Shown piece by piece: positions 29,489 through 49,308 of a DNA stretch of 49,320 bases. Each line of letters opens with the position of its first letter. The stretch's first letter is position 1. Source of the DNA: a virus; the IMG/VR virus record IMGVR_UViG_3300008050_000019. One strand, 5' to 3'. Under the pieces are notes generated by a model that had not been told where the DNA came from, did no database searches, and was given only the letters and a program-made list of their open reading frames with translations. The position numbers and the translations under genes were made by a program.

Positions 29489-30040
29489 TCACTCCCTGTG
29501 AACAGCACGAAAAGTAGCCGTTAACCCTTCCTCTTTATTCCTGGCGAGACACCACAGCCTATACTCAGAAACCGTCATTGGCTGTCCATTGATGCTGTAA
29601 CTCTCCGCCCGAGTCTTTGTTCTACGTGACCAACTTCTGTATGAAGGTCCAGTCTCGCAGTGTTCTCTTCCTTCGAACATATGCTGTTCTGACCATACAC
29701 TCCCGTCTTCATCATATACTATCACAGCCGGTCCATCTTCTCTATGGTATAGACCATGAGTATAATACTTATCTGTGAGCTTAATTCCTTGTCTCGTCAT
29801 GCAGTATGCAGGCCCATCCGTTCTATGATAGATGCCTAGCGGTCCCTTAAAATCAGCTATCGAAGGATTAAAGAGCCTCTGATCACCTGCAAAACCCACC
29901 CTATGTTGATAAATTTGATAAATGCTGTTCTGTGAAAGTGTACTATCTATCATCACAAAGTGTGCAGAGACTTCATAACCCTCAAGCTTTCTTACAATCT
30001 TGAGAGTATTCTCGTCATAGATACTAGACGTCCATTCCAT
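29489..30040 (-). CDS. HREDGPA / MORN-like repeat protein
   Basis: YHRTDGPAY, YHREDGPAV repeats; leaderless TGTGATATTATAAAAT-ATG. Confidence 0.6.
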   Translation of the reverse strand: MEWTSSIYDENTLKIVRKLEGYEVSAHFVMIDSTLSQNSIYQIYQHRVGFAGDQRLFNPSIADFKGPLGIYHRTDGPAYCMTRQGIKLTDKYYTHGLYHREDGPAVIVYDEDGSVWSEQHMFEGREHCETGPSYRSWSRRTKTRAESYSINGQPMTVSEYRLWCLARNKEEGLTATFRAVHRE

Positions 30041-30106
30041 ATTTTATAATATCACATCTAGCGAGCTCCTACAACATATTTTACTCACGCTCGCCGGCGC
30101 AAAAAG

Positions 30107-30433
30107 TTATCTTTTAAAAGTTGATTCTAAGCCCTTTTTGCAGCCTCTAACAAGGCAATGTAGCCTGAATATTTCGATTGACAGCACCACTCCCTCTTGA
30201 TACCAGATCTGATAATAAACCTCACCTGTGTGGTAATATGAGATGTATGCTGGCCCATCGTCTCTGTGTATTAAGCCATTTACATACCAGCGCTCGTAGT
30301 TAATGTTGCCATTTGGGTAATAAGCGATAACTGCTGGCTTATCTTTCCTATGTGGTCTGCAGTTTTGATACCAGTATTCTGAGCTAATTTTGCCGTTTGA
30401 ATAATAATCAATTATTGATTCAGCACCATCCAT
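30107..30433 (-). CDS. HREDGPA / MORN-like repeat protein with conserved C-terminal tail
   Basis: WYxNGxxHRDDGPA repeats; tail FRLHCLVRGCKKGLESTFKR; leaderless TGTGATATTATAAACTG-ATG. Confidence 0.65.
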   Translation of the reverse strand: MDGAESIIDYYSNGKISSEYWYQNCRPHRKDKPAVIAYYPNGNINYERWYVNGLIHRDDGPAYISYYHTGEVYYQIWYQEGVVLSIEIFRLHCLVRGCKKGLESTFKR

Positions 30434-30640
30434 CAGTTTATAATATCACATCTGATGAACTTTTGCAACATATTTTACTCACACTCGCCGGCGCAAAAAG
30501 TTATCTTTTTTTGAAAAAAAGGGTTATAAGAGCACATTATCATGAACGGTAAAAAATCATTAAAGTTGCAAAAGCTGTATTAAATGAGACAGGAATGTCA
30601 TATAATATTTTAAGGGACAGGAAAATTATAATGAGCAAGC

Positions 30641-30985
30641 TTAATCATCACGCCAATCTTCGATATCGTATATCCCGTACGTATCTTTCAAGGGTTGTTC
30701 TTTACCTGTCATTAGCAGGTAAACACGATACAGTTCTATTGGTAGTTCCTCTCCATGTAAATAAAAGATAGCGTTTTTTCTTAGTGAGTTGCTATGAGCA
30801 AAAACAACCGCTGGACCATCTTCTCTGTGCGTGATACAAGAAGCATCACGATAATGCACCAAAATAAGCTCGCCATAATCGTCTTTTACTTTTCTTAGAA
30901 ACCCACCATTAGGTAAGGAAATTCTGCTAATCATATTGCACGCTTCATATTTGATAATATCACATCTGGTGAACTCTTGCAACAT
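30641..30985 (-). CDS. HREDGPA / MORN-like repeat protein
   Basis: THREDGPAVVF; tail LYRVYLLMTGKEQPLKDTY; leaderless TGTGATATTATCAAAT-ATG. Confidence 0.55.
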   Translation of the reverse strand: MLQEFTRCDIIKYEACNMISRISLPNGGFLRKVKDDYGELILVHYRDASCITHREDGPAVVFAHSNSLRKNAIFYLHGEELPIELYRVYLLMTGKEQPLKDTYGIYDIEDWRDD

Positions 30986-31089
30986 ATTTTACTCGCATCC
31001 ACCCCGGGGCAAGTATACCGCTAACTGTTCTTATTTTGTGTCAAATGTTCCTAATTCGTGGTATAATTTATATAGAAATGAGGAACATA

Positions 31090-31586
31090 TGAAGTTTAGT
31101 TCTATTAAGTGCTTTCTAGGGTTTCATGATTGGTTTCGCATGTATCGATCAGCAGAACAAAACAAGAGGTACGATGGTGTACCCTTGCAGGATGCGTATG
31201 CGTACATTACCGTCTGGGAGGCATGGAAGTTAGGGACCACCATTGGCGGGAGGCATATTACACAGACTTCTACAGCTCGACAAAAAAACTTTATTGCCGA
31301 CATCCATCGTGACAAAACATGCATACACTGCAAGAAGGTTAATCTGAGGTTTGAAAAGTTGCTAGTTTCGTGTGAAGCGAAGCAAGCAGTAAGAGATCGT
31401 GCTAGAGTCGCCGAGTTGGGGCGCCAAAACTGCATTCCCATTGACACTTATGTAGCCAGGATCTGTGAAGCACGTGAAGCGTATGGTAAGCCTGTAACAC
31501 CTCTAGTGACAGGTAAGGCCCAGGGGAAGCTTTCAATAGCAGAACTTGGGCCAGGAAACATCTCACTTTCAGAAAAGAGTAAATAG
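31090..31586 (+). CDS. CFxGxHDW / CxxC / GKLSIAE family paralog 1
   Basis: MKFSSIKCFLGFHDWF ... DKTCIHCKKVNLRFEKLL ... GKLSIAELGPGNISL; AGGAACAT then ATG. Confidence 0.55.
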
Positions 31587-31587
31587 T

Positions 31588-32064
31588 ATGTCATTAAAAA
31601 GGCTACTGTGTTTCATTGGTAGACATGATTACCATAACGTTCCTAAAACATTTGAACATGCCACTAAGTTCAAAGCAATTGAACTTTACTGGATAGTGCG
31701 ACAGCTTACACCAGCGCAATTTTCTGCGTGTAACATTTCCCTAGAGAGATCACTTAACCAGAAGCACCTGCAAGTCAATAAAGCAAAAATCTTATGCACG
31801 ATACATGATAGTGTGTGCGTAAGGTGTAATAATGTCGACTTAGCATTTACGAAGATTCTTTCTGGAGCGGAGAAGGCAATCAGTGAGGCATGCACCAAAA
31901 ACCAACGAGATGCTGCCAGAAACAATGAGTATGAAGAAATGGTCAAGAAGGCTAGAATGATATACTTTGATGAAAGGCCAGCCCACACTCTTATAACAGA
32001 TGGGAAGCTTTCAATAGCAGAACCACATAATGGTAGGGTTTCTATACCTAGGAGTCACAAATAA
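31588..32064 (+). CDS. CFxGxHDW / CxxC / GKLSIAE family paralog 2
   Basis: MSLKRLLCFIGRHDY ... DSVCVRCNNVDLAFTKIL ... GKLSIAEPHNGRVSIP. Confidence 0.55.
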   Translation: MSLKRLLCFIGRHDYHNVPKTFEHATKFKAIELYWIVRQLTPAQFSACNISLERSLNQKHLQVNKAKILCTIHDSVCVRCNNVDLAFTKILSGAEKAISEACTKNQRDAARNNEYEEMVKKARMIYFDERPAHTLITDGKLSIAEPHNGRVSIPRSHK

Positions 32065-32065
32065 T

Positions 32066-32587
32066 ATGGGTTGGAAAAAGTTGCAATGTTTCATTGGGTG
32101 GCATGATTGGTGCAACGCTCTGCCAACGGTCGAGCAAATAAAGAGGTGGGATTCCTTAGATATTGCTCATATCAAGCAAGCAGCCAGCTGGGCCGTCCGT
32201 AGTCATTCTAAGAAGGAAGTCAAGTATTTTTATCGTGATAAAGCATGTAGGCGATGCGAGAAGATTGATTTGGCACATGAAAAGCTGCTGGAAGAATCAG
32301 AAAAGATAGAGTATAAAAGCACCCAAATTGAGCATAAGTCCAAAGATATAGAACATATTCTGATAAGTAAGATTACGGGTGCTAGGATGCAACGCCATAA
32401 AGAGCTTGTCGCAGGGACAGAGATAAAACAATCTTCTGGTGGGAAGCTTTCAATCGCAGAAAATGTTGAGGGGAGCGTTTCGCTGCCAAGTGATGAGACT
32501 TTAAAAGCACGACACACAGAAGATGAGCTTGATTTCGAAGTTAGTCAACAAAGAGAAGCAAAAATAGTAGACAATTACGTTTCTTAA
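32066..32587 (+). CDS. CFxGxHDW / CxxC / GKLSIAE family paralog 3
   Basis: MGWKKLQCFIGWHDW ... DKACRRCEKIDLAHEKLL ... GKLSIAENVEGSVSLP. Confidence 0.55.
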   Translation: MGWKKLQCFIGWHDWCNALPTVEQIKRWDSLDIAHIKQAASWAVRSHSKKEVKYFYRDKACRRCEKIDLAHEKLLEESEKIEYKSTQIEHKSKDIEHILISKITGARMQRHKELVAGTEIKQSSGGKLSIAENVEGSVSLPSDETLKARHTEDELDFEVSQQREAKIVDNYVS

Positions 32588-32908: not shown

Positions 32909-33463
32909 ATGAAAAATATAATCTTAGCTGGCCTATTTACTCTAACTGTGGGGTGTGGACCTGCAATCGAAAAAGAAGACTTCATTGGTGCATGGACTTA
33001 TTATAGCGGAATTTCGACAGACATATGTTCTAATGGTCAAACACAAGTACGTTCCGCTGCAGGCGCAACAATCGCATATGAACAGAAGGGTGACCTCATA
33101 AGGGCGTATGGCATAAATGACACCAATGTAGGGGAACTTATATTTGGTGATGATGGGTTCTATTACAAGTTAAACAAGAATAAGCTTGTGGCAGAAGGAC
33201 CCCAGTCTCAATGTTGGAGAATTTACAATGGCAATTACCCCTATGAATGTCTAACCCAAGAAGAAGCCACGTTCAGCATGGAGTATTCAAATGTTAAACG
33301 AGAAGGTGCTGAAGATGTTGAGGAGCTGGTCATAACCATGGCAGGTAGTGGTCACCATGAAGGATTGCTTAGTAATGATACACGTGATGTTGGTTTGTCT
33401 TGTGACTATACAATAGAGGGTAAGTTGTTGTTCAACCCTATTGCAACCAACTTGTTAGACTAG
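32909..33463 (+). CDS. predicted secreted lipoprotein (184 aa)
   Basis: MKNIILAGLFTLTVGC signal and lipobox. Confidence 0.55.
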   Translation: MKNIILAGLFTLTVGCGPAIEKEDFIGAWTYYSGISTDICSNGQTQVRSAAGATIAYEQKGDLIRAYGINDTNVGELIFGDDGFYYKLNKNKLVAEGPQSQCWRIYNGNYPYECLTQEEATFSMEYSNVKREGAEDVEELVITMAGSGHHEGLLSNDTRDVGLSCDYTIEGKLLFNPIATNLLD

Positions 33464-33600
33464 TTCTATTCCTTTAGTCTATCCTAGATCTTTGCTTTAT
33501 TTTGGTTTGCTGCCCTGGATGAGGGCTTGATATGGCAGCCACATGGCGGAGGAGTGGGGCAACACAATCATCATCAAGTATATGTCCGTCCTTCCTTTCT

Positions 33601-33660
33601 AATGTCGAAACACCTTCGGGTGTCATATTGGGTGACCTCCAACGTCTGATGAGATAGGTC
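33601..33660 (+). ncRNA. hammerhead ribozyme, type II (HH2); predicted cleavage after C33624
   Basis: GUC-GAAA-[ACACC-uucg-GGUGU]-C|A-stemI(UUGGG..GACCU..CCAA)-CUGAUGA-GAU-AGGUC; AGGUC pairs loop-I GACCU. Confidence 0.8.
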
Positions 33661-33671
33661 AAGGAGAAGTT

Positions 33672-34247
33672 ATGAGCGCATCTAGAAGAGACACTCAAGT
33701 AAGCAGATTAAAGAAAATCCTCCCGGGAGTACTTCAGACGAAGGGTATAATGTGCTTCATCCATGCTTATGATGAAGGCGGAATGAACCGAGCCTGGGAA
33801 AATGTTGATACAGAAGACAAGCAGGCATTCATGGCTTTCTGTGAAAGCATCATGGATGAAGAGCTAGAGTACTTGGCCGCCTTTCTTGGTCATGGTGATG
33901 AAAGCCTAAGTAGCCTATTCTCTGATTTCCTTGAAAAAATGGAGGTTCTATTTCAAATAGAATCAGACAAGGAGTATACAGAACAGCAAAACGCCCACAA
34001 CGAGTGGGTGAAAACTACCAGGACCTCGAACCAGGGGAAAGTCATTACTCGAGGTGATCGCGTCTTATCGGAATCTGGAATGACTGGTGTGGTCGTCGGG
34101 GTGGTTTCTGAGACGGCACAACACTTTGGGTCCATTAAAGTATGGAATGAAGACACCAAGGGGTGTTGTGACCAATGCGGAGAAAATCCCACTCGCACAT
34201 TTTCATTTAGCAATTGGGAATCAGAATTAATAATTCTCGATAAGTAA
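33672..34247 (+). CDS. hypothetical protein (191 aa) downstream of HH2
   Basis: AAGGAG SD overlaps ribozyme 3' tail; ATG 33672. Confidence 0.55.
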   Translation: MSASRRDTQVSRLKKILPGVLQTKGIMCFIHAYDEGGMNRAWENVDTEDKQAFMAFCESIMDEELEYLAAFLGHGDESLSSLFSDFLEKMEVLFQIESDKEYTEQQNAHNEWVKTTRTSNQGKVITRGDRVLSESGMTGVVVGVVSETAQHFGSIKVWNEDTKGCCDQCGENPTRTFSFSNWESELIILDK

Positions 34248-34329
34248 CATCCTTGTATCCTTCGTGTCCTTCTTGTATTAAAATATTTCAGGATTCGGGA
34301 ATCACCCAATCTTTTGAGATAGGATTCAT

Positions 34330-34392
34330 ATGTACGAATTGTTGAGTGGCATCTTTATTTTTTCAATCACCATCATGTCAGTGTTTGCCTGA
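34330..34392 (+). CDS. candidate micro-ORF encoding 20-aa hydrophobic peptide MYELLSGIFIFSITIMSVFA
   Basis: ATG..TGA behind a module-like promoter CTTGTATTAAAATATTTCAGGATTCGGGAATCACC. Confidence 0.2.
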   Translation: MYELLSGIFIFSITIMSVFA

Positions 34393-34483
34393 TGTTGGAA
34401 GCTGTCTTAAACTGAGTGGAACGCCGTATTGACGCTATTGGTGGCATGAGTTGCAGAGCATGTCCAATTTAAAATCGGCTGCA

Positions 34484-34540
34484 TTCGAAACGCCCTAAGG
34501 GCGTCATGTTGGGTGACCTCCAACGTCTGATGAGATAGGT
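34484..34540 (+). ncRNA. hammerhead ribozyme, type II (HH3); predicted cleavage after C34505
   Basis: GAAA-[ACGCCC-uaa-GGGCGU]-C|A then sequence identical to HH2 from stem I onward; stem III differs by compensatory changes. Confidence 0.75.
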
Positions 34541-34552
34541 CAAGGAGAAGTT

Positions 34553-34678
34553 ATGAATATCACGAAACCCAAACCCACATCTGCAGTTATTACGCACACC
34601 TGCGGGCCAGCCGAGAAGACGTATAAAGTTACAAGCACCGTCAAGCTCAAGAAAGTGAGCACAAAGGAGCTAAAATAA
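34553..34678 (+). CDS. small ORF (~41 aa) downstream of HH3
   Basis: AAGGAG SD then ATG; MNITKPKPTSAVITHTCGPAEKTYKVTSTVKLKKVSTKELK. Confidence 0.35.
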   Translation: MNITKPKPTSAVITHTCGPAEKTYKVTSTVKLKKVSTKELK

Positions 34679-34680
34679 CA

Positions 34681-34929
34681 ATGATGTACTTTGTAGGAAC
34701 TGCACAAGAGGAAAATAAGAACTCACTTAAGTATTTTTTGACCCAATTGTGTTCCTCTGTCGAAACAGAGGACGGACCGGAAGCTGCAGCTAAGCTATAT
34801 GCAGCCGATATGGATAGCGTTGACAGGGAAGATCTCGTTATTTATGTTATAAGTCAACGAACCACTTGTACTGTACGCAATGAAACTGTTTCGACGGTTA
34901 CGGATATAGAAACAAAAGATGAAAAATAA
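34681..34929 (+). CDS. hypothetical protein (82 aa)
   Basis: six-frame ORF directly after previous stop. Confidence 0.45.
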   Translation: MMYFVGTAQEENKNSLKYFLTQLCSSVETEDGPEAAAKLYAADMDSVDREDLVIYVISQRTTCTVRNETVSTVTDIETKDEK

Positions 34930-35006
34930 GTATCATCTGTAGGATGCCAGTGTTACAATATTCTTGGAAATAGGAAATAAAGCCTATCTCCAATGGAGTA
35001 TATAGC

Positions 35007-35537
35007 ATGGCTGGCATCAACTCAATCGACATCTACTCAATTCCACATTCGCAATCCAAGAAAGCTGGCATTACCAATGTCGACTTCATCGCGTTATACC
35101 TCATGAAATATGGACCAACGAAGTACACGCCACTTCGTAATGCACTTCTGCGTTGGCGGGGCATCAATCCTAAGAGGGCATCTCGTGGATACCTCACCAA
35201 CTACTTCAGCGGAGCACCCTCAAGTGGTCGATACAGGGCATACAGTGACGGCTATGCTGGACTTACCTACGGGTTTGGAGTTAGGTACGGCCCTATCACC
35301 CACAACTGGAGAGCATATTGGTGGAAACCAGAGACGTCCATTCGCACAGAAACCCAAGTCATGCGGGAAATTCCGATCTATAAAGATGGTAAAGAGACTG
35401 GAGAAACGAAGAGCATTCCGCAATTGGACGTCACTATGACCCCATCCGGACACCACAATGATCCTTTCCAACTTACTGGACGAGGCAAGAGGCGGGCGAC
35501 TTTGGTATTAAAGACCATCACTTCCCTAAAGCTCTAA
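35007..35537 (+). CDS. hypothetical protein (176 aa)
   Basis: promoter CCAGTGTTACAATATTCTTGG then ATG. Confidence 0.55.
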   Translation: MAGINSIDIYSIPHSQSKKAGITNVDFIALYLMKYGPTKYTPLRNALLRWRGINPKRASRGYLTNYFSGAPSSGRYRAYSDGYAGLTYGFGVRYGPITHNWRAYWWKPETSIRTETQVMREIPIYKDGKETGETKSIPQLDVTMTPSGHHNDPFQLTGRGKRRATLVLKTITSLKL

Positions 35538-36032
35538 ATCCCTCTCAGCTGCTCGCCTCTTTGCTTCCTGCAAATTTTCTAATGCCATAATAAGTGATTC
35601 AAGTTCGCTTGTTGAATTTGTTCCACCTACCCCTCGGACACACCAGTTCATCGGCCTAGGCCTCCCACTCATATCTGGTTGATTATTTTGCCAGACATGG
35701 GTGGTAATTTTATCATCTTTATAGGCTTTGCGAACGATATCAATCAACACGCAGGCTGTCATTATGTCACTGAAGTCTGGCCACCATCGCTGCTGATCTA
35801 GCAGTTCAGTGTAAACATGATATCTGCCTGGCCCAAACCAACCGTCTTCAGTGATAATGTCATTGCACAACCTCCCCCAGATAAGATCATTCGTAGGGTG
35901 GTTGTATCTCATACCATCCCTGAGCTCATCAGATGATGTACATGCGTTAAATAGTTCACCAAGAGCGTGCCAATAATCTCTATCTTTTGTCATTCTAGTC
36001 ACCGCACTCGATTGTTTTAACGCAACCATCAT
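35526..36032 (-). CDS. hypothetical protein (168 aa), last gene of 7-gene minus-strand operon
   Basis: six-frame ORF. Confidence 0.5.
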   Translation of the reverse strand: MMVALKQSSAVTRMTKDRDYWHALGELFNACTSSDELRDGMRYNHPTNDLIWGRLCNDIITEDGWFGPGRYHVYTELLDQQRWWPDFSDIMTACVLIDIVRKAYKDDKITTHVWQNNQPDMSGRPRPMNWCVRGVGGTNSTSELESLIMALENLQEAKRRAAERDLEL

Positions 36033-36225
36033 GATGGCAAAATAGATTAATCAATCCACTTTCCGTGCGAACAGAGCAGTTATTAACTGAGCAGTGAACG
36101 CCAGTTATCGGGATGCCAAGATCGTCTGCCCACTTTTTTGCAAGAACATCTCTTGGTACTGATCCGCAACATGAAATGCAGCTAGCAAGTACGAGTAAAA
36201 CTACCCACTCAACTATATGTTTCAT
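35995..36225 (-). CDS. predicted lipoprotein (76 aa)
   Basis: MKHIVEWVVLLVLASC signal and lipobox; Cys-rich. Confidence 0.5.
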   Translation of the reverse strand: MKHIVEWVVLLVLASCISCCGSVPRDVLAKKWADDLGIPITGVHCSVNNCSVRTESGLINLFCHHDGCVKTIECGD

Positions 36226-36228
36226 TTG

Positions 36229-36872: not shown

Positions 36873-36876
36873 GTCC

Positions 36877-41546: not shown

Positions 41547-41549
41547 GAT

Positions 41550-41810: not shown

Positions 41811-41836
41811 TTAACCTTAAACAAAACGAGAACTTT

Positions 41837-42301: not shown

Positions 42302-42312
42302 AAGGAAGCAAG

Positions 42313-42606: not shown

Positions 42607-42608
42607 AT

Positions 42609-42968
42609 ATGTCTGGCGAACTTGCTGACGAAAATTTTGCATTGCAACTTCAATTGCAAGAAGCTAGAAAGAAAATTGAGCGATACGAAAAGCTCCTTTC
42701 AATGGAGTCCATTCTTGAACTCGCTTACACATTCGTAGTGGCAAAAGGCGCGGGTAACCTTGATGCTCATATCTTGGTGAAGTTCGTACCGAACACTTCT
42801 CTCAGGGCAGCGAAAGAAATATGTGAGCTATTCCGTGCAGAGGCAATAATCGGTGCCAAGCATGTAACAGCACACACTGCATACTACGCCGCTTGCCGAA
42901 TCATGCATAAACTCCAATTTAAAATTGTGCGACCAAATACGCACACAGACACAAGAGAAAGTAAATGA
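42609..42968 (+). CDS. hypothetical protein (119 aa)
   Basis: MSGELADEN...; 2 nt after previous stop. Confidence 0.5.
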   Translation: MSGELADENFALQLQLQEARKKIERYEKLLSMESILELAYTFVVAKGAGNLDAHILVKFVPNTSLRAAKEICELFRAEAIIGAKHVTAHTAYYAACRIMHKLQFKIVRPNTHTDTRESK

Positions 42969-43285
42969 ACAAATCTAATATCGGTGCCATACTCATGGCA
43001 TCCTGCATACAATTTGCATGTGGAGGGTCTGGTCCTGTATCAAGTGATGCTTCTATTCCAGACGCCATGTCTGCTCAGGATTCCGGCATCGATGCGGGCG
43101 TTCTGCATGCTGATTCTGGTGTGACCAATACTACATGCATCGTGGATCTAGCATCAGGTGCAATTATCGTTTACATGCAGTGCACATTTTCTGATGAGTG
43201 TCAAAACGTGTGCACTGCATGTAATGCAGCAAATGATGTGGCGTGTGTGTCTGATAGCACACCATACTGCTACTGTCGAAATTAA
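42965..43285 (+). CDS. Cys-rich predicted secreted lipoprotein (106 aa)
   Basis: MNKSNIGAILMASCIQFACGG signal; 12 Cys. Confidence 0.55.
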   Translation: MNKSNIGAILMASCIQFACGGSGPVSSDASIPDAMSAQDSGIDAGVLHADSGVTNTTCIVDLASGAIIVYMQCTFSDECQNVCTACNAANDVACVSDSTPYCYCRN

Positions 43286-43297
43286 GGAGACTAATTA

Positions 43298-44113
43298 ATG
43301 CCAACCCCACCTGTGCCCTGGACGGGCTTCCAAGATGATGAGCCTGTCGAAGATGAGTTGTTCATGTTCAAGGTCAGATGTAAATCCCTGACCGATGAAA
43401 CTTGGTACCACTTCAGTGCTCACTCGCCTGTTGGTGCTGCTAAGAGGTATATGAATACCCGACTGTCTTTCCTGCAAGAGAGGGAGTCCAAGGCCGGCTA
43501 TATCATTGATATTATGCCACATACCGCTATAGGAATTGCGGGCCACAAAGTTAAGATTGGTCTAGCTCTTTGTGAGGGAAAGTGGGTTCAAGGTACCATC
43601 ATAAGTGATGCGGGTGTCGCCCCTCACGTTGAAATTAGGACACCTCAAAAGTTTATGAATGACTGGCTTCCTGTGTATGATACAATGGAAGAAATGCAAC
43701 GCTTAAACAAACTGAATAGAGGCGGGGATCTTGCGGTTCCTGACTGGCAATCAGATCAACCATCAATGCAAGATGGTGTCATTGCTCTTCCGCTCGGAGA
43801 TGACTCTCCTGACCCATCTCAGGACACCTCATTTCTGCTCTTCGATGAAGCTAACGTTGCAAGCGAAGAGGAACATAATCAGCTCCTGGATCTCATTGCC
43901 GGGCAGTCAGGCGGAACCAGGGCAGTCAGAGTTATTAGGAAGCATTGGAGGGTTGCAATTGCCATTGCACTCATCTTGGAAGCCATTCTCTTGGTGTGCG
44001 TGCCCACCAAATTTGTGTTATTTGGTTGGTTCGTCTTATTCATGTTTGGCCCATTTGCCTGGGCATTTGAAAAGCATATCATGAGAAAAATCTTACGTTA
44101 TGTGGGTCAGTAA
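43298..44113 (+). CDS. hypothetical membrane-anchored protein (271 aa)
   Basis: C-terminal hydrophobic segments VAIAIALILEAILLV and FVLFGWFVLFMFGPFAWAF. Confidence 0.6.
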   Translation: MPTPPVPWTGFQDDEPVEDELFMFKVRCKSLTDETWYHFSAHSPVGAAKRYMNTRLSFLQERESKAGYIIDIMPHTAIGIAGHKVKIGLALCEGKWVQGTIISDAGVAPHVEIRTPQKFMNDWLPVYDTMEEMQRLNKLNRGGDLAVPDWQSDQPSMQDGVIALPLGDDSPDPSQDTSFLLFDEANVASEEEHNQLLDLIAGQSGGTRAVRVIRKHWRVAIAIALILEAILLVCVPTKFVLFGWFVLFMFGPFAWAFEKHIMRKILRYVGQ

Positions 44114-44334: not shown

Positions 44335-44727
44335 TTGTTCTTTATGATTAAGGGCTCAGTCATTACACGCTATACAAGTGACATTGAACTTCATACATCA
44401 TATTATGATAATGGAAACCGATGGCTTGAGCGTTATATCAACATAAAGTTTTATAAACTGCACAGGGAAGATGGACCTGCTGAGATTACTTATGAAGTGA
44501 GTGGTGAGGTCACATCAAAGAAATGGTATATAGAGGGTCAATTGCATAGAGAAGACGGGTGCGCACATATGCTTAGGGGTTTTGATGCTGGGACATTCAT
44601 TTCGTACTATTTTTTAAAAGACGTTAACTATAGTGTAGGTGACTTCCGCTTGTATTGCTTGGCATCTGGTAACATAAAAGGGTTAGAATCTACTTTTAGC
44701 AACAACATAAACATCAAAAATATGTAA
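44335..44727 (+). CDS. HREDGPA / MORN-like repeat protein
   Basis: YKLHREDGPAEITY, LHREDGCA; tail DFRLYCLASGNIKGLESTFS. Confidence 0.6.
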   Translation: MFFMIKGSVITRYTSDIELHTSYYDNGNRWLERYINIKFYKLHREDGPAEITYEVSGEVTSKKWYIEGQLHREDGCAHMLRGFDAGTFISYYFLKDVNYSVGDFRLYCLASGNIKGLESTFSNNINIKNM

Positions 44728-44771
44728 AATATACGTGGATATTTGATTAATAACTTGTGATATAATATACT

Positions 44772-45182
44772 ATGAAGCCTGATTATATATGGTATACGGA
44801 TAAAATTCGATTAGAGACGGACAGAACGAAGACTGGCAAAATAACCTCAGAGATTTACACTATACTCTCTGGTGAAAAGCCAAATAATTGGAACTTCGAA
44901 AAAACAAGAATTTATCACAGAGAAGATGGTCCAGCGTTTGTGTCATATTTTGAAGATGGTACTATAATGCATGAATTCTGGTACAGAAATGGATCACCCA
45001 ACAATCCTATTGGACCGGCGTGTGTGTCGTACAATCAAGCTGGTAAGGTTGTAAAAAAATCATATTTCATAATGGGTTATGGTAAAGTAGACGAAGCCTT
45101 TTTTCGACTACACTGTCTTATAACTGGCAACGCGGAAGGCCTAAATTCCACCTTCAGGGAAGAACATAGTGGAAGCGTATAA
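44772..45182 (+). CDS. HREDGPA / MORN-like repeat protein
   Basis: YHREDGPAFVSY; tail FFRLHCLITGNAEGLNSTF. Confidence 0.6.
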   Translation: MKPDYIWYTDKIRLETDRTKTGKITSEIYTILSGEKPNNWNFEKTRIYHREDGPAFVSYFEDGTIMHEFWYRNGSPNNPIGPACVSYNQAGKVVKKSYFIMGYGKVDEAFFRLHCLITGNAEGLNSTFREEHSGSV

Positions 45183-45600
45183 AGTTATTGATTATACGGA
45201 CGAGATCAAGATACTACGTGTGTATGATGCTAAAGGCATTTTAATACGCGAAGAGTATAGCAAAGAGGGAGCCCGCTCCAAAGACAACTCTGTGTATATT
45301 GAACCTTATCATCTTGATACACGCGAATGGTTTACAAAAAATCGGCGCCATAGAGACGATGGGCCTGCTGAGATTTGTTATTTCGAAAATGGAGACATCT
45401 TCCGAAAATCTTGGTACAAAGATGATCTTCTTCATAATCAAGCAGGGCCTGCATATATACGGTATAGTGATGATGGTCGTGTCAGTATGAAATACTATGT
45501 GTTATGGGGAACTGACGTAAGCTTTCATGATTTTCGTATGTACTGTCTTATAACTGGTAACATGGAGGGTTTAGCTTCTACTTACGAAACCACTAAATGA
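45169..45600 (+). CDS. HREDGPA / MORN-like repeat protein
   Basis: RHRDDGPAEICY; tail DFRMYCLITGNMEGLASTY. Confidence 0.6.
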   Translation: MEAYKVIDYTDEIKILRVYDAKGILIREEYSKEGARSKDNSVYIEPYHLDTREWFTKNRRHRDDGPAEICYFENGDIFRKSWYKDDLLHNQAGPAYIRYSDDGRVSMKYYVLWGTDVSFHDFRMYCLITGNMEGLASTYETTK

Positions 45601-46003
45601 TTCCCTCTAACATATTGGCGTATTTTTCTAAATTGGTTTTCTCGTATGTTTCTTCAAAGGCATCAAAATCTTTTTGAATTATCGTATGCAACCTGTACTC
45701 TTCGAGTGTTACGAATTCTCCATTAAAAGAATAATATTTATTGCCATCTTCGATCAGTGATATGCCATTGTTCTTACAAACCTCACCCATCACCCAAAAT
45801 TCAACGCAAGTGATTTTGTTGCGTATATATTTGATATATGCTGGACCACTTTCATTATGAAGTATCCTGTGAGTAGCATGTTCGTTGTCTAAAGCATAAT
45901 AATAAACTATACCTGAGTGCTTTGTGAGTCTAACGACCTTTTTAAAGTGAGCTTTTTCATCTGGCCTAATCAAGCTTTTTATATGTTGATTCAAGTCCAT
46001 CAT
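45593..46003 (-). CDS. HREDGPA / MORN-like repeat protein (diverged)
   Basis: LHNESGPAYIKY; tail EYRLHTIIQKDFDAFEETY. Confidence 0.55.
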   Translation of the reverse strand: MMDLNQHIKSLIRPDEKAHFKKVVRLTKHSGIVYYYALDNEHATHRILHNESGPAYIKYIRNKITCVEFWVMGEVCKNNGISLIEDGNKYYSFNGEFVTLEEYRLHTIIQKDFDAFEETYEKTNLEKYANMLEGII

Positions 46004-46370
46004 TATAACCTCTAATAAGACAATATAGCCTGTAGTGCTCGATAGTTAAGTATTCATCATTGATAACAAAATAGACATCTGGAATGCCGTCAGGATTGTA
46101 CGTGATACGCGCTGGCCCGTTTGTATTATGCAGTCTATCTTTTCTGTACCATCCTTTACTTACAACTTTCCTATAAGGCTTATTGCAGGCATGAATGCCA
46201 CCATCATCATACAGAAAACTTGAGAATATAATGCGAGCTGGGCCATCAACTCGGTGTAGGGTGTGATCAGCAGCTGATCTGTACTCAATGCTGACTGGGT
46301 TCGTATGATCACGGCGCATGAAGCGCAACAGCTTCAATATCCCGGGAGCGTAATTAAAAATTCTTATCAT
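45966..46370 (-). CDS. HREDGPA / MORN-like repeat protein
   Basis: LHRVDGPARIIF, LHNTNGPARITY; tail HYRLYCLIRGYNDGLESTY. Confidence 0.6.
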   Translation of the reverse strand: MIRIFNYAPGILKLLRFMRRDHTNPVSIEYRSAADHTLHRVDGPARIIFSSFLYDDGGIHACNKPYRKVVSKGWYRKDRLHNTNGPARITYNPDGIPDVYFVINDEYLTIEHYRLYCLIRGYNDGLESTYKKLD

Positions 46371-46797
46371 ATGTTGACCTAAGCCCTCTTGTATAACCGA
46401 GCTTTAAGCAGTGAAGCCTATACTCCCCTTTTGATAATATCGTCCCGTTTAAAGCGTATATCCTACTATAAACTTCGCCCTTGCAGTTGTAGTACATACT
46501 GGCAGGACCTGTAATGTTATGCCTATGGCCCTCTTCATACCAGCTCTCTATCCTGATAGAGCCGTCAGCGAAGAACTCAATATATGCAGGACCATCTTCC
46601 TTGTGAAGCATCCCCTGAGCGTTTCCGGTTCTAAATTTGTTAAATTTAAGGTTTTCCCATGTTAAGCTCTGTGGCATTTTGTCTTCGACCGTGTAGCTTT
46701 TGCTTATCATATGCCCAGCAGGACCTTCACCAATAACACCCTCAGGAAGGTATGCTATTGTGCAAATCCCAGTGTCTAATTGAATAATTTCTTGCAT
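46354..46797 (-). CDS. HREDGPA / MORN-like repeat protein
   Basis: LHKEDGPAYIEF; tail EYRLHCLKLGYTRGLRSTY. Confidence 0.6.
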   Translation of the reverse strand: MQEIIQLDTGICTIAYLPEGVIGEGPAGHMISKSYTVEDKMPQSLTWENLKFNKFRTGNAQGMLHKEDGPAYIEFFADGSIRIESWYEEGHRHNITGPASMYYNCKGEVYSRIYALNGTILSKGEYRLHCLKLGYTRGLRSTYDKNF

Positions 46798-46800
46798 ACT

Positions 46801-47268
46801 TTATTTATCCCCCGAAATAGAGAAAGTAGCAGTTAACCCTTTCATATTATTAGTGGCAAGACAGTGAAGCCTATACTCACCTTCTGTTATGTATTGGTCA
46901 AACAAGTAGTACCTTACTACCCATGGAGCGCGTGGGTGATCCCGTTCAATGATCGCCGGTCCATCTTCTCTGTGGAGGCGACCATAATGATAGTAAGTTA
47001 TCACACTGGGAGAACCACAAAGAAAGAAAGTTATGTGAGCTGGCTCATTATCTCGGTGATATGTTACAGAGCAAGTCTCATTACTAGGTAATGTATAATA
47101 TACACAGAAGTTGCTATTTTCGGCCTTAGGCCCGTAATATGGACCCCATGTTGTGACAGTTTTTACGAGAGAAATTCCGTTGACACAGATGTTTTCTTTT
47201 CTTATTATCATATTTCTCATTTTAGATTTAGAAGTCGTAGATAACTGCTTCGTCATATTTGCAGTCAT
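46801..47268 (-). CDS. HREDGPA / MORN-like repeat protein
   Basis: LHREDGPAIIER; tail EYRLHCLATNNMKGLTATF. Confidence 0.6.
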   Translation of the reverse strand: MTANMTKQLSTTSKSKMRNMIIRKENICVNGISLVKTVTTWGPYYGPKAENSNFCVYYTLPSNETCSVTYHRDNEPAHITFFLCGSPSVITYYHYGRLHREDGPAIIERDHPRAPWVVRYYLFDQYITEGEYRLHCLATNNMKGLTATFSISGDK

Positions 47269-47623
47269 AAGTTGCTTCTAAACCCACTAGATTATCATTA
47301 GTTAAACAATAAAGCCTATATTCCATGAGTGTCATTGTAGTTCCGAGAATGGCATATGATATGCCAATAACTGCACCTGTAATTTTATAGTCAATATATG
47401 ATGGACCCTCTTCATGGTGTTCAAGCCCTGATCTTGCATATAATACACTTAATAAGTTGCCGAGACGTGAGTATTGCACTCGAGCAGGGCCAGAATCTCT
47501 ATGGAAGAGACCCTCTGCAGAATACATCAGTTTACCACATTCATAGTCAATCTCAGAATCCCCGAGTTCATTCACAAGTGTATACACTTCAGAAAGTATA
47601 GTGCCGTCTTCATAAAAAGCCAA
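47228..47623 (-). CDS. HREDGPA / MORN-like repeat protein
   Basis: FHRDSGPARVQY; tail EYRLYCLTNDNLVGLEATY. Confidence 0.6.
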   Translation of the reverse strand: MAFYEDGTILSEVYTLVNELGDSEIDYECGKLMYSAEGLFHRDSGPARVQYSRLGNLLSVLYARSGLEHHEEGPSYIDYKITGAVIGISYAILGTTMTLMEYRLYCLTNDNLVGLEATYDCKYDEAVIYDF

Positions 47624-47830
47624 CGTTTTGCGTGTAACTCTATCATATGAAGATATTTTTTCATATGATTATATTAACACATTTGATTAAACATTTACAA
47701 CAAATGTGTTAAACACTAGTCTGTTTATTTGTTACAAAGTGTTATAAATTAGTGATATAATTTATATAGAAATATGGATATTCAATCTATTATGTGCTTT
47801 TTTGGATGTCACAGGCAATAATCTCTACCT

Positions 47831-48196
47831 ATGAAAAAAGTCAGCCAGTACTCATCTAATCTCCGCCTAACAGAGAGTTATACCAATGATATCAAAGTAT
47901 CTGAAGCTTATACTCTTGAGGACATCGAGAGCTGTGAAGATGGACCATGCTATCATCGTGAAGATGGCCCGGCATTCATAAGTTACTACTCCACTGGTGA
48001 GCGTCAATGTGAGTATTGGTTTATACGTGACAAACTCAACAGAAAGAATGGACCATCAATAATTCAGTATCACAGAAACCAAAGCGTGATCGCGAAGACG
48101 TACATGGTAGACAGCACTAAGGTATCTGTGAATTATTTTAGAGTATTATGCCTTGTGACCAGCAACGTAAAGGGCTTAGCATCAACTTTCGAGTAA
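47831..48196 (+). CDS. HREDGPA / MORN-like repeat protein
   Basis: YHREDGPAFISY; tail YFRVLCLVTSNVKGLASTFE. Confidence 0.6.
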   Translation: MKKVSQYSSNLRLTESYTNDIKVSEAYTLEDIESCEDGPCYHREDGPAFISYYSTGERQCEYWFIRDKLNRKNGPSIIQYHRNQSVIAKTYMVDSTKVSVNYFRVLCLVTSNVKGLASTFE

Positions 48197-48204
48197 ATGA
48201 CATT

Positions 48205-48621
48205 ATGAAACTCAATGGCATAAAGAAGCATTATTATGATAATGACAACCTAATGGAGGTTAGTATTTGGAGGGATGACCGGCTTCATAGTACTGGTAGA
48301 CCTGCTTTACAAATATTTTTAAACAATGGAGACCTTAGATGCGAAGTATTTTACCAAAATGGGTTAATACACAGAGAAAATGGCCCAGCGGTTGAAAAAT
48401 TTTATGATACTACGCCTGAGCACTGCTGGTTTAGAGCGCACTTTAGACATGGCATATTACATAATGCGCGTGGACCAGCGAGAGAACATAGCCCTGTCCG
48501 GAATATACCACACAAAGTGTACTCACTTAATGGGCATAAACTATCTGTTAGCGAATTTAGAATATTTTTGCTTACCAACAAAAATTTTGAAGCTTTGGCT
48601 AACACGTATGATGATTTATAA
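48205..48621 (+). CDS. HREDGPA / MORN-like repeat protein
   Basis: IHRENGPAVEKF, LHNARGPAREHS; tail EFRIFLLTNKNFEALANTY; ATG 9 nt after previous stop. Confidence 0.55.
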   Translation: MKLNGIKKHYYDNDNLMEVSIWRDDRLHSTGRPALQIFLNNGDLRCEVFYQNGLIHRENGPAVEKFYDTTPEHCWFRAHFRHGILHNARGPAREHSPVRNIPHKVYSLNGHKLSVSEFRIFLLTNKNFEALANTYDDL

Positions 48622-48825
48622 TTCCTTGATATTATACCAAAGTAGCACCAGGGTAATCAGGTTCACACCCGATAAACTATAATCATATTATAATAATGGC
48701 CTATATCAAAAATTCCGGTTCATTAGAAGTGATTACATGAATACCAATAAAACTACATTATGTCGTGAATAAATAGTGTTAATCACTTGTGCAATGTGAT
48801 ATTATAGCAAACAAGGCAAAATCAT

Positions 48826-49014
48826 ATGAACGAGATAAAATTACACGATGAGTGGGTCACGGCGTATAAGCGAATGAAAAACTGGATCACGACGCAGGTA
48901 CCGCTTGATGAAGCGCAGGATGATGCGACGCGTGAAGTGACAGATGCTTTACGAAAAGATACATCAGACAAATTGGATGCATGGCAAAATGAACTCATCA
49001 AAGAGTCAGAGTGA
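48826..49014 (+). CDS. hypothetical acidic protein (62 aa)
   Basis: six-frame ORF after AT-rich promoter-like region. Confidence 0.4.
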   Translation: MNEIKLHDEWVTAYKRMKNWITTQVPLDEAQDDATREVTDALRKDTSDKLDAWQNELIKESE

Positions 49015-49035
49015 ACTATTCCCTACTTATCAACC

Positions 49036-49308
49036 TTACGCAACCCCACTATCTTCGAATGTGCTAGCTAATCCTGCTTGGTTGTTAACTATTAAGCACC
49101 TAAGGCGAAACTCTTCAACTGTATATATCATATCTTCTAACCAGTATGAACCACTTCTGGTAACATAACTATCACGTATATATGCTGGACCATTTTCATT
49201 ATGGAGACGATTTCTCAAGTAAAAAGATTGTGAAGTCATTTCGCCTGATCGCGAAAATGTTTCTATTGCAGGGCCATCTTCACGATGTGTGCCAAAATCT
49301 CTATGCAT
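49036..49308 (-). CDS. HREDGPA / MORN-like repeat protein
   Basis: THREDGPAIETF, LHNENGPAYIRD; tail EFRLRCLIVNNQAGLASTFE. Confidence 0.55.
   Translation of the reverse strand: MHRDFGTHREDGPAIETFSRSGEMTSQSFYLRNRLHNENGPAYIRDSYVTRSGSYWLEDMIYTVEEFRLRCLIVNNQAGLASTFEDSGVA

What the first reader, a model, noticed from the sequence alone, without database searches (positions are those of the whole stretch)
29489..49308. Thirteen paralogs of an HREDGPA (MORN-like) repeat family with a conserved C-terminal (E/D)(Y/F)RL(H/Y)CL..GN..GL.STF tail, in two clusters
Three genes at 29.5-31.0 kb and ten at 44.3-49.3 kb encode 90-185-aa proteins. They are built of 2-4 copies of a ~23-aa repeat (W/Y)Y.NG.LHREDGPA.I.Y. 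All end in the same 20-aa tail. Orientation flips in blocks and start and stop codons overlap. This looks like a rapidly expanding family, possibly cell-surface or membrane-junction binding by analogy with MORN repeats. The conserved tail could be a localisation or packaging signal.
Basis: partly seen in the sequence, partly recalled or inferred. Interest (0 to 1): 0.55.

Follow-up and report, generated by a model that had tools for sequence, protein, structure and literature searches.

The report
Repeat-protein gene family in marine jumbo phage
A large marine phage carries at least 16 diverged copies of a small gene encoding a beta-hairpin repeat protein (distantly MORN-like) that ends in a folded two-helix cap; the family is real and undescribed, similar gene arrays occur on other large contigs, but its function is still unknown.

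Summary
The family is real, with corrections. The window holds 14 members, not 13 (3 at 29.5-31.0 kb, 11 at 44.3-49.3 kb). The "90-aa" member is cut by the window edge and is really 166 aa. Two more members lie just beyond the window. The repeat period is 27-28 aa, not ~23, with 1-3 clear H-R-E-D-G-P-A units per protein.

The source is a 308.6-kb marine contig that looks like a jumbo phage: 26 tRNA genes, peptide deformylase, SLT, and a PA5oct-like structural protein.

The repeat belongs to a very large, barely annotated superfamily (21,256 cluster representatives). Its link to Pfam MORN_2 is only distant. Predicted structures resemble giant-virus "MORN repeat" proteins.

AlphaFold predicts the tail as two confident helices (pLDDT 90-98) in two paralogs. 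That points to a folded C-terminal cap rather than a free signal peptide. Its first residues match a cap entry also seen in another lineage; the rest is specific to this phage lineage. Two other large contigs carry arrays of 14-15 such genes, each with its own conserved tail.

The paralogs are old (25-42% identity), with no signal peptides and very different charges. The most likely role is a set of intracellular protein-binding modules with diversified surfaces. That function is inferred, not shown.

The parts
29489..30040 (-). Member 1, 183 aa; 2 strong 28-aa units (HRTDGPA, HREDGPA) plus a degenerate third; tail SEYRLWCLARNKEEGLTATF
   Evidence: (E 1.4e-43); 99% identical to public protein P0003
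30107..30433 (-). Member 2, 108 aa; 2-3 units; tail EIFRLHCLVRGCKKGLESTF; one of the two members with a sub-threshold MORN_2 hit, and the only one among the ten scanned
   Evidence: 19.9 bits against cut-off 29.6; E 1.1e-37
30641..30985 (-). Member 3, 114 aa; the most degenerate: one unit, tail ELYRVYLLMTGKEQPLKDTY (no Cys)
   Evidence: (E 3.2e-18)
44335..44727 (+). Member 4, 130 aa (TTG start; the public gene call starts 3 codons later); 2 units; tail GDFRLYCLASGNIKGLESTF
   Evidence: (E 3.4e-38)
44772..45182 (+). Member 5, 136 aa; folded with AF2: beta-hairpins followed by helices 108-118 and 121-125, which are the tail
   Evidence: E 6.2e-46; pLDDT 88.5, pTM 0.78
45169..45600 (+). Member 6, 143 aa (GTG start, overlaps member 5 by 14 nt); 2 units; tail HDFRMYCLITGNMEGLASTY
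   Evidence: (E 2.5e-45)
45593..46003 (-). Member 7, 136 aa; one clear unit (HNESGPA); degenerate tail EEYRLHTIIQKDFDAFEETY plus a 15-aa extension; its 3' end overlaps that of member 6 by 8 nt
   Evidence: (E 1.5e-29); public protein P0054
45966..46370 (-). Member 8, 134 aa (public calls of 117 or 134 aa); 2 units with a 14-aa insertion in the first hairpin; tail EHYRLYCLIRGYNDGLESTY
   Evidence: (E 1.5e-35)
46354..46797 (-). Member 9, 147 aa; identical to public protein P0006, seen on 8 contigs; folded with AF2: tail is helices 123-133 and 136-141, pLDDT 97-98
   Evidence: (E 4.1e-41)
46801..47268 (-). Member 10, 155 aa (or 136 aa by another gene call); 1-2 units; tail GEYRLHCLATNNMKGLTATF
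   Evidence: (E 1.1e-36)
47228..47623 (-). Member 11, 131 aa (TTG start); very acidic (pI 4.3, net charge -13); tail MEYRLYCLTNDNLVGLEATY
   Evidence: (E 3.2e-38)
47831..48196 (+). Member 12, 121 aa; 2 units; tail NYFRVLCLVTSNVKGLASTF
   Evidence: (E 2.5e-40)
48148..48621 (+). Member 13, 157 aa (longest ORF overlaps member 12 by 49 nt, so the true start may be downstream); 2 units; tail SEFRIFLLTNKNFEALANTY (no Cys)
   Evidence: (E 2e-33)
49036..49320 (-). Member 14, cut by the window end; the full gene is 166 aa (GTG start, about window 49536) with 3 units; tail EEFRLRCLIVNNQAGLASTF
   Evidence: (E 1e-32)

Best explanation
This is a lineage-specific multigene family of a marine jumbo phage: 14 genes in the window and at least 16 in 27 kb.

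Shown or predicted:
- Each gene encodes a small soluble protein with three parts: variable N-terminal beta-hairpins; 1-3 canonical 28-aa hairpin units with the core (W/Y)Y.NG.LHREDGPA.I.Y; and a C-terminal helix-turn-helix, E(Y/F)RL.CL..GN..GL.STF.
- The repeat is the long form of a very large, essentially unannotated 'HREDGPA' beta-hairpin repeat superfamily. That superfamily is distantly related to Pfam MORN_2 and overlaps part of DUF6745.
- The copies are old and diverged and have the composition of the phage backbone.

Inferred:
- The tail is mainly a folded cap for the end of the hairpin stack, inherited from the founder gene of this lineage.
- The conserved residues (H, R, D, G, P, A, aromatics and the tail core) form a constant scaffold, while the remaining positions, and with them the net charge, have diversified.
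- The proteins therefore most likely act inside the infected cell as a panel of protein-binding modules, each recognising a different host or phage partner. This is the same logic as other virus-encoded repeat-protein expansions and as the MORN_2-type immunity protein YwqK, which neutralises its toxin by binding.
- The targets and the benefit to the phage (host takeover or counter-defence) are not known.
For: Family and anatomy.

Phage context:
- 26 tRNA genes.
- SLT, peptide deformylase, PRTase and trypsin-like peptidase.
- A 534-aa ORF related to a PA5oct-type jumbo-phage structural protein.
- A 308,593-bp parent contig.

Superfamily:
- 21,256 representatives at E <= 1e-3 and 7,805 at E <= 1e-10.
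- Homologs carry MORN_2 or partial DUF6745 hits.
- Repeat spacing is bimodal at 23 and 28 aa.

Fold:
- AF2 pLDDT 88.5 and 84.7, with a beta-hairpin stack followed by two C-terminal helices at pLDDT 90-98 in both models.
- BFVD top hits are giant-virus MORN-repeat proteins and uncultured Caudovirales proteins.

Cap reading of the tail:
- hhalign aligns the last hairpin with two other lineages (probability 82-83%). Against L016/L017 it runs into the cap entry ('sv.EY' against 'VTEEEH'); neither alignment goes further.
- About 15% of fetched homologs have an 'NG..LT.EE[FYW]' cap after the last unit.
- The conserved tail positions follow an i, i+1, i+4, i+5 stripe of mostly hydrophobic residues (read from the sequence).

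Soluble and diversified:
- No TM or signal peptide; pI 4.3-9.3; net charge -13 to +6.

Old, native copies:
- 25-42% identity with no long DNA matches.
- GC 0.39 and GC3 0.36, like the phage backbone.
- Identical across samples.

Recurrence of the architecture:
- Arrays of 15 and 14 members per 20 kb in the L016/L017 and L018/L019 lineages, each with its own conserved tail.

Binding precedent:
- YwqK co-purifies with, and neutralises, its cognate toxin YwqJ (PMC13648612).
- Homologs of this family are labelled 'YwqK' by JGI.
Against: - There is no direct functional evidence of any kind. There are no hits in PHROGs, PADLOC, NCBIfam or the PDB by sequence.
- I had no model coordinates, so burial of the tail residues against the sheet is inferred from pLDDT, pTM and helical periodicity, not measured.
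- The tail contains invariant polar residues (R, T) and is as conserved as the repeat core, even though the paralogs are only ~25-40% identical. The tail-less paralog just outside the window ends right at the cap entry. The long tail is therefore not obviously required for folding and could have a function of its own.
- No orthologous arrays from related phages were found, so selection on surface versus scaffold positions could not be measured.
Confidence: 0.5

Rival explanations
1. Constant handle plus variable head. The lineage-specific tail is a shared docking or targeting element. It would deliver every paralog to one common destination, such as the capsid (for ejection with the DNA, like the T4 capsid-targeting sequence on internal proteins) or a hub such as a protease or adaptor. 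The variable repeats would carry the specific activity.
For: - The tail is as conserved as the repeat core across paralogs of 25-42% identity, with invariant polar R and T.
- Beyond the cap entry it has no detectable similarity to the tails of other lineages, yet each lineage keeps its own tail nearly invariant across 9-11 paralogs.
- A tail-less paralog exists, so the fold may not need the tail.
- Architectural precedents, from my own knowledge and not tested here: the T4 internal-protein locus and the poxvirus ankyrin-PRANC families.
Against: - In two models the tail is predicted as helices with the highest confidence in the protein. That is typical of an integral folded element, not a free peptide.
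- Its start is continuous with the last hairpin and aligns with the cap entry of another lineage (recurring motif).
- Most conserved tail residues are hydrophobic and lie on one helical face.
- No prohead-protease-type cleavage motif was seen by eye. No partner gene is shared between the three lineages' arrays.
Confidence: 0.17
2. Immunity-like inhibitors, a specific version of the binding model. The paralogs would be YwqK-type MORN_2 immunity proteins that neutralise a range of host toxin effectors (abortive-infection or polymorphic toxins) during infection.
For: - Homologs are annotated 'antitoxin component YwqK' by JGI and carry MORN_2 hits.
- YwqK acts by binding its toxin (PMC13648612).
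- Immunity genes are known to occur in arrays (my own knowledge).
- The family has highly diverse surface charge.
Against: - No window member passes the MORN_2 threshold.
- No toxin gene lies next to either cluster.
- There are no PADLOC hits.
- The YwqK label on homologs is an automatic COG-level name, not a tested function.
Confidence: 0.12
3. One reading: cell-surface or membrane-junction binding proteins by analogy with eukaryotic MORN proteins or the secreted Fusobacterium MORN2 proteins.
For: - The fold class resembles MORN-repeat proteins.
- Fusobacterium MORN2 proteins are proposed adhesins (PMC4222103).
Against: - No signal peptide, lipobox or TM segment occurs in any of the 16 members, whereas 87% of Fusobacterium MORN2 proteins have signal peptides (PMC4222103).
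- Canonical MORN is not detected.
Confidence: 0.05
4. Virion structural or decoration proteins, or functionally decaying duplicates with no individual role.
For: - The jumbo-phage context includes many paralog families.
- One member (30641-30985) is clearly degenerate.
Against: - All 14 ORFs are intact and keep the scaffold and tail residues despite deep divergence, which argues for purifying selection.
- They lie among small ORFan genes near the tRNA island, not in a recognisable structural module.
- There are no PHROG structural hits.
Confidence: 0.06

Closest known systems
Paralogous MORN-repeat protein families of giant viruses (Marseilleviridae, Orpheovirus, Pithovirus, Klosneuvirinae MAGs)
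   Same: - Large virus-encoded families of small beta-hairpin repeat proteins of unknown function. MORN-repeat proteins are the most abundant paralog family in marseilleviruses (PMC8208085).
- These are the best structural matches to the AF2 model.
- One HREDGPA-repeat protein lies on a giant-virus MAG contig (L007).
   Different: - Those viruses infect eukaryotes, and their proteins are annotated with canonical MORN. This is a phage.
- The repeat here is a 28-aa HREDGPA unit that hits neither Pfam MORN nor, at threshold, MORN_2.
- Every member here carries a specific two-helix tail.
Pfam MORN_2 (PF07661), including the B. subtilis immunity protein YwqK and the expanded secreted MORN2 proteins of invasive Fusobacterium
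   Same: - Short beta-hairpin repeats with a (Y)Y.NG core.
- Transitive homology: P0023 passes MORN_2 at 36.8 bits and matches the family profile at E 2e-26.
- Lineage-specific expansions are known (PMC4222103).
- Function by protein binding is shown for YwqK (PMC13648612).
   Different: - Window members score at most 19.9 bits against the 29.6-bit cut-off.
- The unit is 28 aa rather than 22-23 aa.
- There are no signal peptides and no neighbouring toxin gene.
Pfam DUF6745 (PF20530)
   Same: Many homologs have partial hits to profile positions ~60-110, which appear to be HREDGPA repeats.
   Different: - Only a quarter of that 206-position model is matched.
- No window member hits it at E <= 1.
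- No paper in the searched library mentions it.
HREDGPA-repeat gene arrays on other large contigs found here (L016/L017 and L018/L019); single copies in Agrobacterium jumbo phage Atu_ph07 and Celeribacter phage P12053L
   Same: - Same superfamily.
- Dense tandem arrays of 14-15 genes per 20 kb.
- A conserved C-terminal tail that starts at the same place after the last hairpin.
- Copies in deposited phages are annotated only as 'hypothetical protein'.
   Different: - They use the 23-aa short repeat form.
- Their tails are different (…VTEEEHAKLREQS.G and …C..NEEFLRIVKLKAFW).
- Their paralogs are much more alike (60-75% identity in the last unit plus tail) than those here.
- Those arrays appear to lie largely on one strand.
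T4-type internal-protein (IP) loci and poxvirus ankyrin-PRANC families (architectural analogies from my own knowledge, not homologs)
   Same: Tandem families in which a short conserved terminal element is combined with a variable body.
   Different: - The T4 targeting sequence is N-terminal, about 10 aa, and is cleaved off.
- PRANC binds eukaryotic Skp1.
- Here the conserved element is C-terminal, predicted to be folded, and no partner is known.

Membership tests
Pfam MORN_2 (PF07661) | Whole-protein score at or above the gathering cut-off (29.6 bits) | tested here: not met
   Best score is 19.9 bits (E 7e-4). Only 2 of 14 members match at E <= 1.
Pfam MORN_2 (PF07661) | Repeat unit of 22-23 aa (PMC4222103; the Pfam model has 22 positions) | tested here: not met
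   Core spacing is 27-28 aa and units sit back-to-back at 28 aa. The short form does exist elsewhere in the superfamily.
Pfam MORN_2 (PF07661) | Homology traceable to bona fide members | tested here: met
   P0023 scores 36.8 bits on MORN_2 and matches the family profile at E 2.3e-26. Several homologs carry precomputed PF07661 hits.
Canonical MORN (PF02493) | Pfam match / YxGxWxxGxxxGxG-type 23-aa motif | tested here: not met
   No hit at E <= 1 for any of the 14 members. The motif is absent from the alignment.
Canonical MORN (PF02493) | Specific structural similarity to solved MORN-repeat proteins | tested here: inconclusive
Pfam DUF6745 (PF20530) | Match to the 206-position model at or above 27 bits | tested here: not met
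   No window member matches. Homologs match only positions ~60-110, and a few exceed 27 bits.
HREDGPA beta-hairpin repeat superfamily (unnamed; defined here by profile A1) | Tandem hairpin units with an H-[RK]-x-[DE]-G-P-A core at 23- or 28-aa spacing | tested here: met
   28 clear units in the 17 family sequences analysed; 21,256 representatives at E <= 1e-3; bimodal spacing.
YwqK-type immunity / antitoxin proteins | Gene adjacent to a cognate toxin gene (LXG or other polymorphic toxin) | tested here: not met
   Neighbours are paralogs or ORFans with no Pfam toxin domain. This is limited by Pfam sensitivity and by the subset of neighbours scanned.
YwqK-type immunity / antitoxin proteins | Binds and neutralises a toxin | not testable with these tools
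   Needs co-expression or pull-down experiments.
T4-type internal proteins with a capsid-targeting sequence | Short N-terminal conserved targeting peptide followed by a prohead-protease site | tested here: not met
   N-termini are variable. The conserved element is C-terminal and predicted helical at pLDDT 90-98.
T4-type internal proteins with a capsid-targeting sequence | Presence in the virion | not testable with these tools
   Needs virion proteomics.
Secreted or surface MORN2 proteins (Fusobacterium type) | N-terminal signal peptide | tested here: not met
   Maximum 19-residue Kyte-Doolittle hydropathy is <= 1.54 and the N-termini are polar. No dedicated signal-peptide predictor was available.

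The most novel reading that the evidence does not exclude
HREDGPA-repeat arrays could be a general but undescribed module of large phages and related mobile elements. Each lineage would maintain a panel of 'variable binder + constant lineage-specific C-terminal handle' proteins. The handle would dock every paralog to one lineage-specific hub, either packaging into the capsid for co-injection or a protease/adaptor. The diversified hairpin surfaces would capture different host defence or housekeeping proteins. This would be a phage counterpart of the T4 internal-protein locus or of the poxvirus ankyrin-PRANC adaptors.
Probability: 0.15. Interest if true: 0.7.

Novelty: new variant of a known kind. 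Interest (0 to 1): 0.4.

Why it matters
Repeat-protein expansions are a hallmark of host manipulation by giant viruses and intracellular bacteria. In phages they are hardly documented.

Here at least 16 genes, about 12% of this window, belong to one such family. At least two other large contigs hold comparable arrays, each with its own conserved tail. The underlying repeat superfamily has more than 20,000 sequence clusters, no solved structure detectable by sequence, no PHROG, and no paper in the searched literature.

If the proteins turn out to be binders of host factors or defence proteins, these arrays would be a rich and easily recognised source of new phage-host interaction modules. If they are only scaffolds of unknown role, the result is still a clean definition of a family, including the correct repeat length and a structural reading of the tail.

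Tried and rejected
- blastn of cluster 2 against 50,697 GenBank phages: no match. tblastn of a tailed member: no match.
- PHROGs, NCBIfam and PADLOC: nothing for the family.
- PDB by sequence: only noise. Foldseek against the PDB: no hit at E <= 1e-3. AFDB50 was not available.
With two single members it returned only one giant-virus MAG repeat protein.
- The tail-only alignment was too short for the protein search. The extended tail alignment returned a single new tailed protein, P0271. That search collected only 16 candidates and did not return the window's own proteins, so it is not exhaustive.
- Tail DNA pattern: 0 hits in IMG/VR. In JGI metagenomes only the P0271 contig is real. The single hit in 185,579 GTDB species genomes is chance. 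The pattern requires AGR arginine codons and the Cys, so it would see only about 6 of the 14 window members.
- Population microdiversity: none, with contigs 99.98-100% identical. The idea of hypervariation or ongoing turnover was dropped.
- Recent duplication: rejected.
- Foreign origin: rejected, because GC and GC3 match the low-GC backbone.
- The promoter/terminator scan was uninformative in this AT-rich DNA.
- The perfect inverted repeats between the divergent blocks do not recur upstream of other blocks.
- Literature: no paper contains HREDGPA-type strings or DUF6745. The jumbo-phage comparative survey does not mention MORN.

Full report
OBSERVATION

The ORF list for 29-49.3 kb and a MAFFT alignment show a clear family. 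An HMM built from that alignment and run on all six-frame ORFs of the window recovers exactly 14 ORFs (E 3e-18 to 6e-46). The next best hit has E = 2.3. All-vs-all BLASTP groups the same 14. A degenerate DNA pattern encoding the tail core matches 8 times against 0.00 expected in shuffles.

The family is therefore real and not a chance pattern, but some details differ from the finding:
- Count. There are 3 genes at 29489-30985 and 11, not 10, at 44335-49308.
- Truncated member. The '90-aa' gene at 49036-49308 runs off the window. In the parent contig it is 166 aa.
- Repeat period. The G-P-A cores are 27-28 aa apart. A single-unit HMM finds back-to-back 28-aa units, 1-3 per protein and mostly 2. 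The period is not ~23 aa.
- Tail. In the tail, R and T are invariant and both aromatic positions are 14/14 aromatic. L is 13/14, G-L is 11-13/14 and Cys is 11/14.
- Layout. Strand blocks run - - - | + + + | - - - - - | + + | -. With longest-ORF starts, neighbours overlap by 8-49 nt. Public gene calls pick shorter starts for several members, so the overlaps are only partly certain.

CONTEXT

One member is identical to a public protein that lies on a 308,593-bp ENA marine contig and on several short JGI and Logan contigs. The window is part of that contig. Five other contigs are 99.98-100% identical to it.

The window also carries:
- 26 tRNA genes in 8.6 kb;
- an SLT transglycosylase, peptide deformylase, phosphoribosyltransferase and trypsin-like peptidase;
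- a 534-aa ORF distantly similar to a structural protein of PA5oct-type Pseudomonas jumbo phages.

Together with the dense small-gene layout, this indicates a jumbo phage of a bacterial host. That is an inference, because no capsid or terminase gene lies in the window.

The locus that extends 7.5 kb past the window shows one more tailed member and one tail-less five-repeat member. That makes at least 16 copies within 27 kb.

WHAT THE REPEAT IS

Direct family searches on window members:
- Pfam gives only sub-threshold MORN_2 hits on 2 of 14 members (19.9 bits against 29.6).
- PHROGs, NCBIfam, PADLOC and PDB sequences give nothing.

Database searches show a very large family:
- The profile finds 647 proteins in the word-indexed search.
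- An exhaustive HMMER search finds 21,256 cluster representatives at E <= 1e-3, including proteins with up to 19 matched stretches.
- Some homologs pass MORN_2, for example P0023 at 36.8 bits. Many have partial hits to DUF6745, and JGI labels several 'YwqK antitoxin'.

The relation to MORN_2 is thus real but transitive, and membership at Pfam's own threshold is not met.

In deposited phage genomes the superfamily is rare. The tailed member has no tblastn hit. The tail-less paralog hits only Agrobacterium jumbo phage Atu_ph07 and Celeribacter phage P12053L, both annotated as hypothetical. No paper in the library contains the motif or DUF6745.

STRUCTURE

AlphaFold2 models of two paralogs are confident (pLDDT 88.5 with pTM 0.78, and pLDDT 84.7 with pTM 0.76). 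Both show a stack of beta-hairpins followed by two C-terminal helices that correspond exactly to the tail: residues 108-118 and 121-125 in member 5, and 123-133 and 136-141 in member 9. The pLDDT there is 90-98, the best in the protein.

Fold searches gave these results:
- Foldseek against the PDB gives no significant hit.
- Against predicted viral structures, the top hits are giant-virus 'MORN repeat' proteins and uncultured Caudovirales proteins, one of them named 'MORN variant' (E 3e-5 to 1e-3).

So 'MORN-like beta-hairpin repeat' is a fair structural label, but it is not a family assignment.

THE TAIL

Among 270 fetched superfamily proteins, a tail HMM finds only the three that come from this phage. 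A tail-centred search of the 5.8-billion-protein set returned one further tailed protein, P0271 (82 aa, EEFRLHCLLIGNMKGLKSTYEK), on a 1.9-kb marine contig next to a DNA pol III alpha fragment.

The tail DNA pattern gave:
- no hit in IMG/VR;
- only the P0271 contig in JGI metagenomes;
- only a chance hit in 185,579 GTDB species genomes.

These screens are partial, because of the codon restriction in the pattern and the small candidate set. As far as they go, the full tail is confined to this phage lineage.

The beginning of the tail is not unique:
- About 15% of homologs continue after the last unit with 'NG..LT.EE[FYW]'.
- Profile-profile comparison of 'last unit + tail' with two other lineages aligns the last hairpin at 82-83% probability. 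Against the L016/L017 lineage it runs into the cap entry ('…G..sv.EY' against 'WYWHGK.VTEEEH'). Against L018/L019 it stops a few columns earlier. Neither extends into RL.CL..GN..GL.STF.

The conserved tail residues are mostly hydrophobic and follow an i, i+1, i+4, i+5 pattern, which puts them on one helical face (read). I therefore read the tail as a folded cap of the hairpin stack whose exact sequence is a signature of the founder gene of this lineage.

Caveats:
- I could not inspect coordinates.
- R and T are invariant polar residues.
- A tail-less paralog exists.

The alternative that the tail is a shared docking or targeting handle therefore stays open, at about 0.17.

A WIDER PATTERN

Looking up homologs on other long contigs showed the same organisation elsewhere:
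- A 190.7-kb contig in NCBI assembly GCA_016276955.3, and a 15-kb ENA contig, carry 15 members in 20 kb. These end in …WYWHGK.VTEEEHAKLREQS.G.
- Two phage-like ENA contigs of 155.6 and 212.3 kb (35% GC, small co-directional genes, RNA ligase) carry 14 members in 20 kb. Most of these end in …C..NEEFLRIVKLKAFW.

Each lineage thus has its own nearly invariant tail, starting at the same point after the last hairpin. This makes the window's family one example of a recurrent 'array plus lineage-specific tail' architecture. I found no description of it.

EVOLUTION

- The paralogs are 25-42% identical and share only 20-75-nt motif-coding DNA matches, apart from their physical overlaps.
- Their GC (0.39) and GC3 (0.36) match the low-GC backbone of the phage.
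- There is no population variation.
- The best partner of each cluster-1 gene is a cluster-2 gene, so the two clusters are not separate clades.

This is an old, maintained family rather than a rapidly expanding one. Rapid sequence divergence after duplication cannot be excluded without orthologs.

FUNCTION (INFERRED)

- No member has a signal peptide or TM segment.
- pI ranges from 4.3 to 9.3 and net charge from -13 to +6.
- All ORFs are intact and keep the scaffold residues.
- The genes lie among small ORFans, other small paralog families and a tRNA island.

The most economical model is a panel of soluble intracellular protein-binding modules with a constant scaffold and diversified surfaces, aimed at different host or phage partners.

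Precedents:
- MORN-repeat paralog families of giant viruses (PMC8208085).
- The MORN_2-type immunity protein YwqK, which works by binding its toxin (PMC13648612).
- From general knowledge, ankyrin-type expansions in poxviruses and intracellular bacteria.

A membrane or surface role, as in secreted Fusobacterium MORN2 proteins (PMC4222103), is unlikely. Nothing here identifies the targets.

VERDICT

- Observation: essentially confirmed, with corrections to the count, the repeat period and one truncated member.
- Interpretation: partly supported.
- Novelty: a new variant of a known kind. Virus-encoded MORN-like repeat expansions are known; this is a phage version with a long-form unit and a lineage-specific helical cap.
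- Interest: moderate (0.4). The family is large, clean and undescribed and recurs in other big contigs, but it has no demonstrated function.

Noticed in passing
window 400-8563 (- strand): An array of 26 tRNA genes covering most amino acids, interspersed with small ORFs. This is typical of very large phages.
   Followed up: partly
window 30936-32587 (+ strand): Three tandem, overlapping paralogs (216, 172 and 185 aa) lie immediately next to cluster 1. They share C(F/L)(I/L)G.HDW and KLSIAE motifs. No family was assigned.
   Followed up: no
window 19144-19671, 21873-22409, 40570-41214 (+ strand): Three dispersed paralogs have much higher GC (0.55-0.61; GC3 0.59-0.74) than the rest of the window. 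At least the copy at 40570-41214, whose sequence was inspected, has an Ala/Glu-rich stretch. That same copy has a weak phrog_580 hit. Long antisense ORFs shadow them.
   Followed up: no
window 14908-18813 (+ strand): A run of about ten back-to-back ORFs of 100-116 aa contains several small paralog groups: 16525/16870/17208, 16207/18142 and 15551/15876.
   Followed up: no
window 18000-29000 and 33000-44000: Composition is mosaic. The 18-24 kb stretch reaches 0.47-0.51 GC, and the rest of these two ranges runs 0.43-0.47. The tRNA region, cluster 1 and cluster 2 are at 0.36-0.41.
   Followed up: partly
window 47642-47712: The 207-bp divergent intergenic region between the - block and the + block of cluster 2 holds two perfect inverted repeats: ATCATATGAA/TTCATATGAT and TTAACACATTTG/CAAATGTGTTAA. 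They do not recur upstream of the other blocks. This may be a local operator or a bidirectional regulatory site.
   Followed up: partly
window 40173-40311: Two ~51-nt segments about 90% identical to each other (40173-40223 and 40262-40311) showed up as secondary BLAST matches.
   Followed up: no
window 32909-33463, 35995-36225, 42965-43285, 43298-44113: By eye, several ORFs between the two clusters have lipoprotein-like or hydrophobic N-termini (for example MKNIILAGLFTLTVGCG…) or, in the 271-aa ORF, C-terminal hydrophobic segments. They may be membrane or periplasmic accessory proteins. This was not tested.
   Followed up: no
window 2168-3575, 11197-12629: Auxiliary-type genes are present: phosphoribosyltransferase, SLT lytic transglycosylase, trypsin-like peptidase and peptide deformylase.
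   Followed up: partly
L008 665-1627: Next to the extra tailed member P0271 lies a DNA pol III alpha fragment (finger domain). Its C-terminal part (…HSECINTYTNEGELIK…) looks by eye like the start of an intein. It is not known whether this contig belongs to the same phage genome.
   Followed up: no
L016 1-20762; L017; L018/L019 1-20513: Other large contigs carry arrays of 14-15 HREDGPA-repeat genes per 20 kb, with their own conserved tails. In L018/L019 some members end instead in a …CDGKVVEIDGKKYKL extension. L016 also encodes FtsK/SpoIIIE and an RRXRR-HNH protein, and its nature (phage, plasmid or cellular) was not determined.
   Followed up: partly
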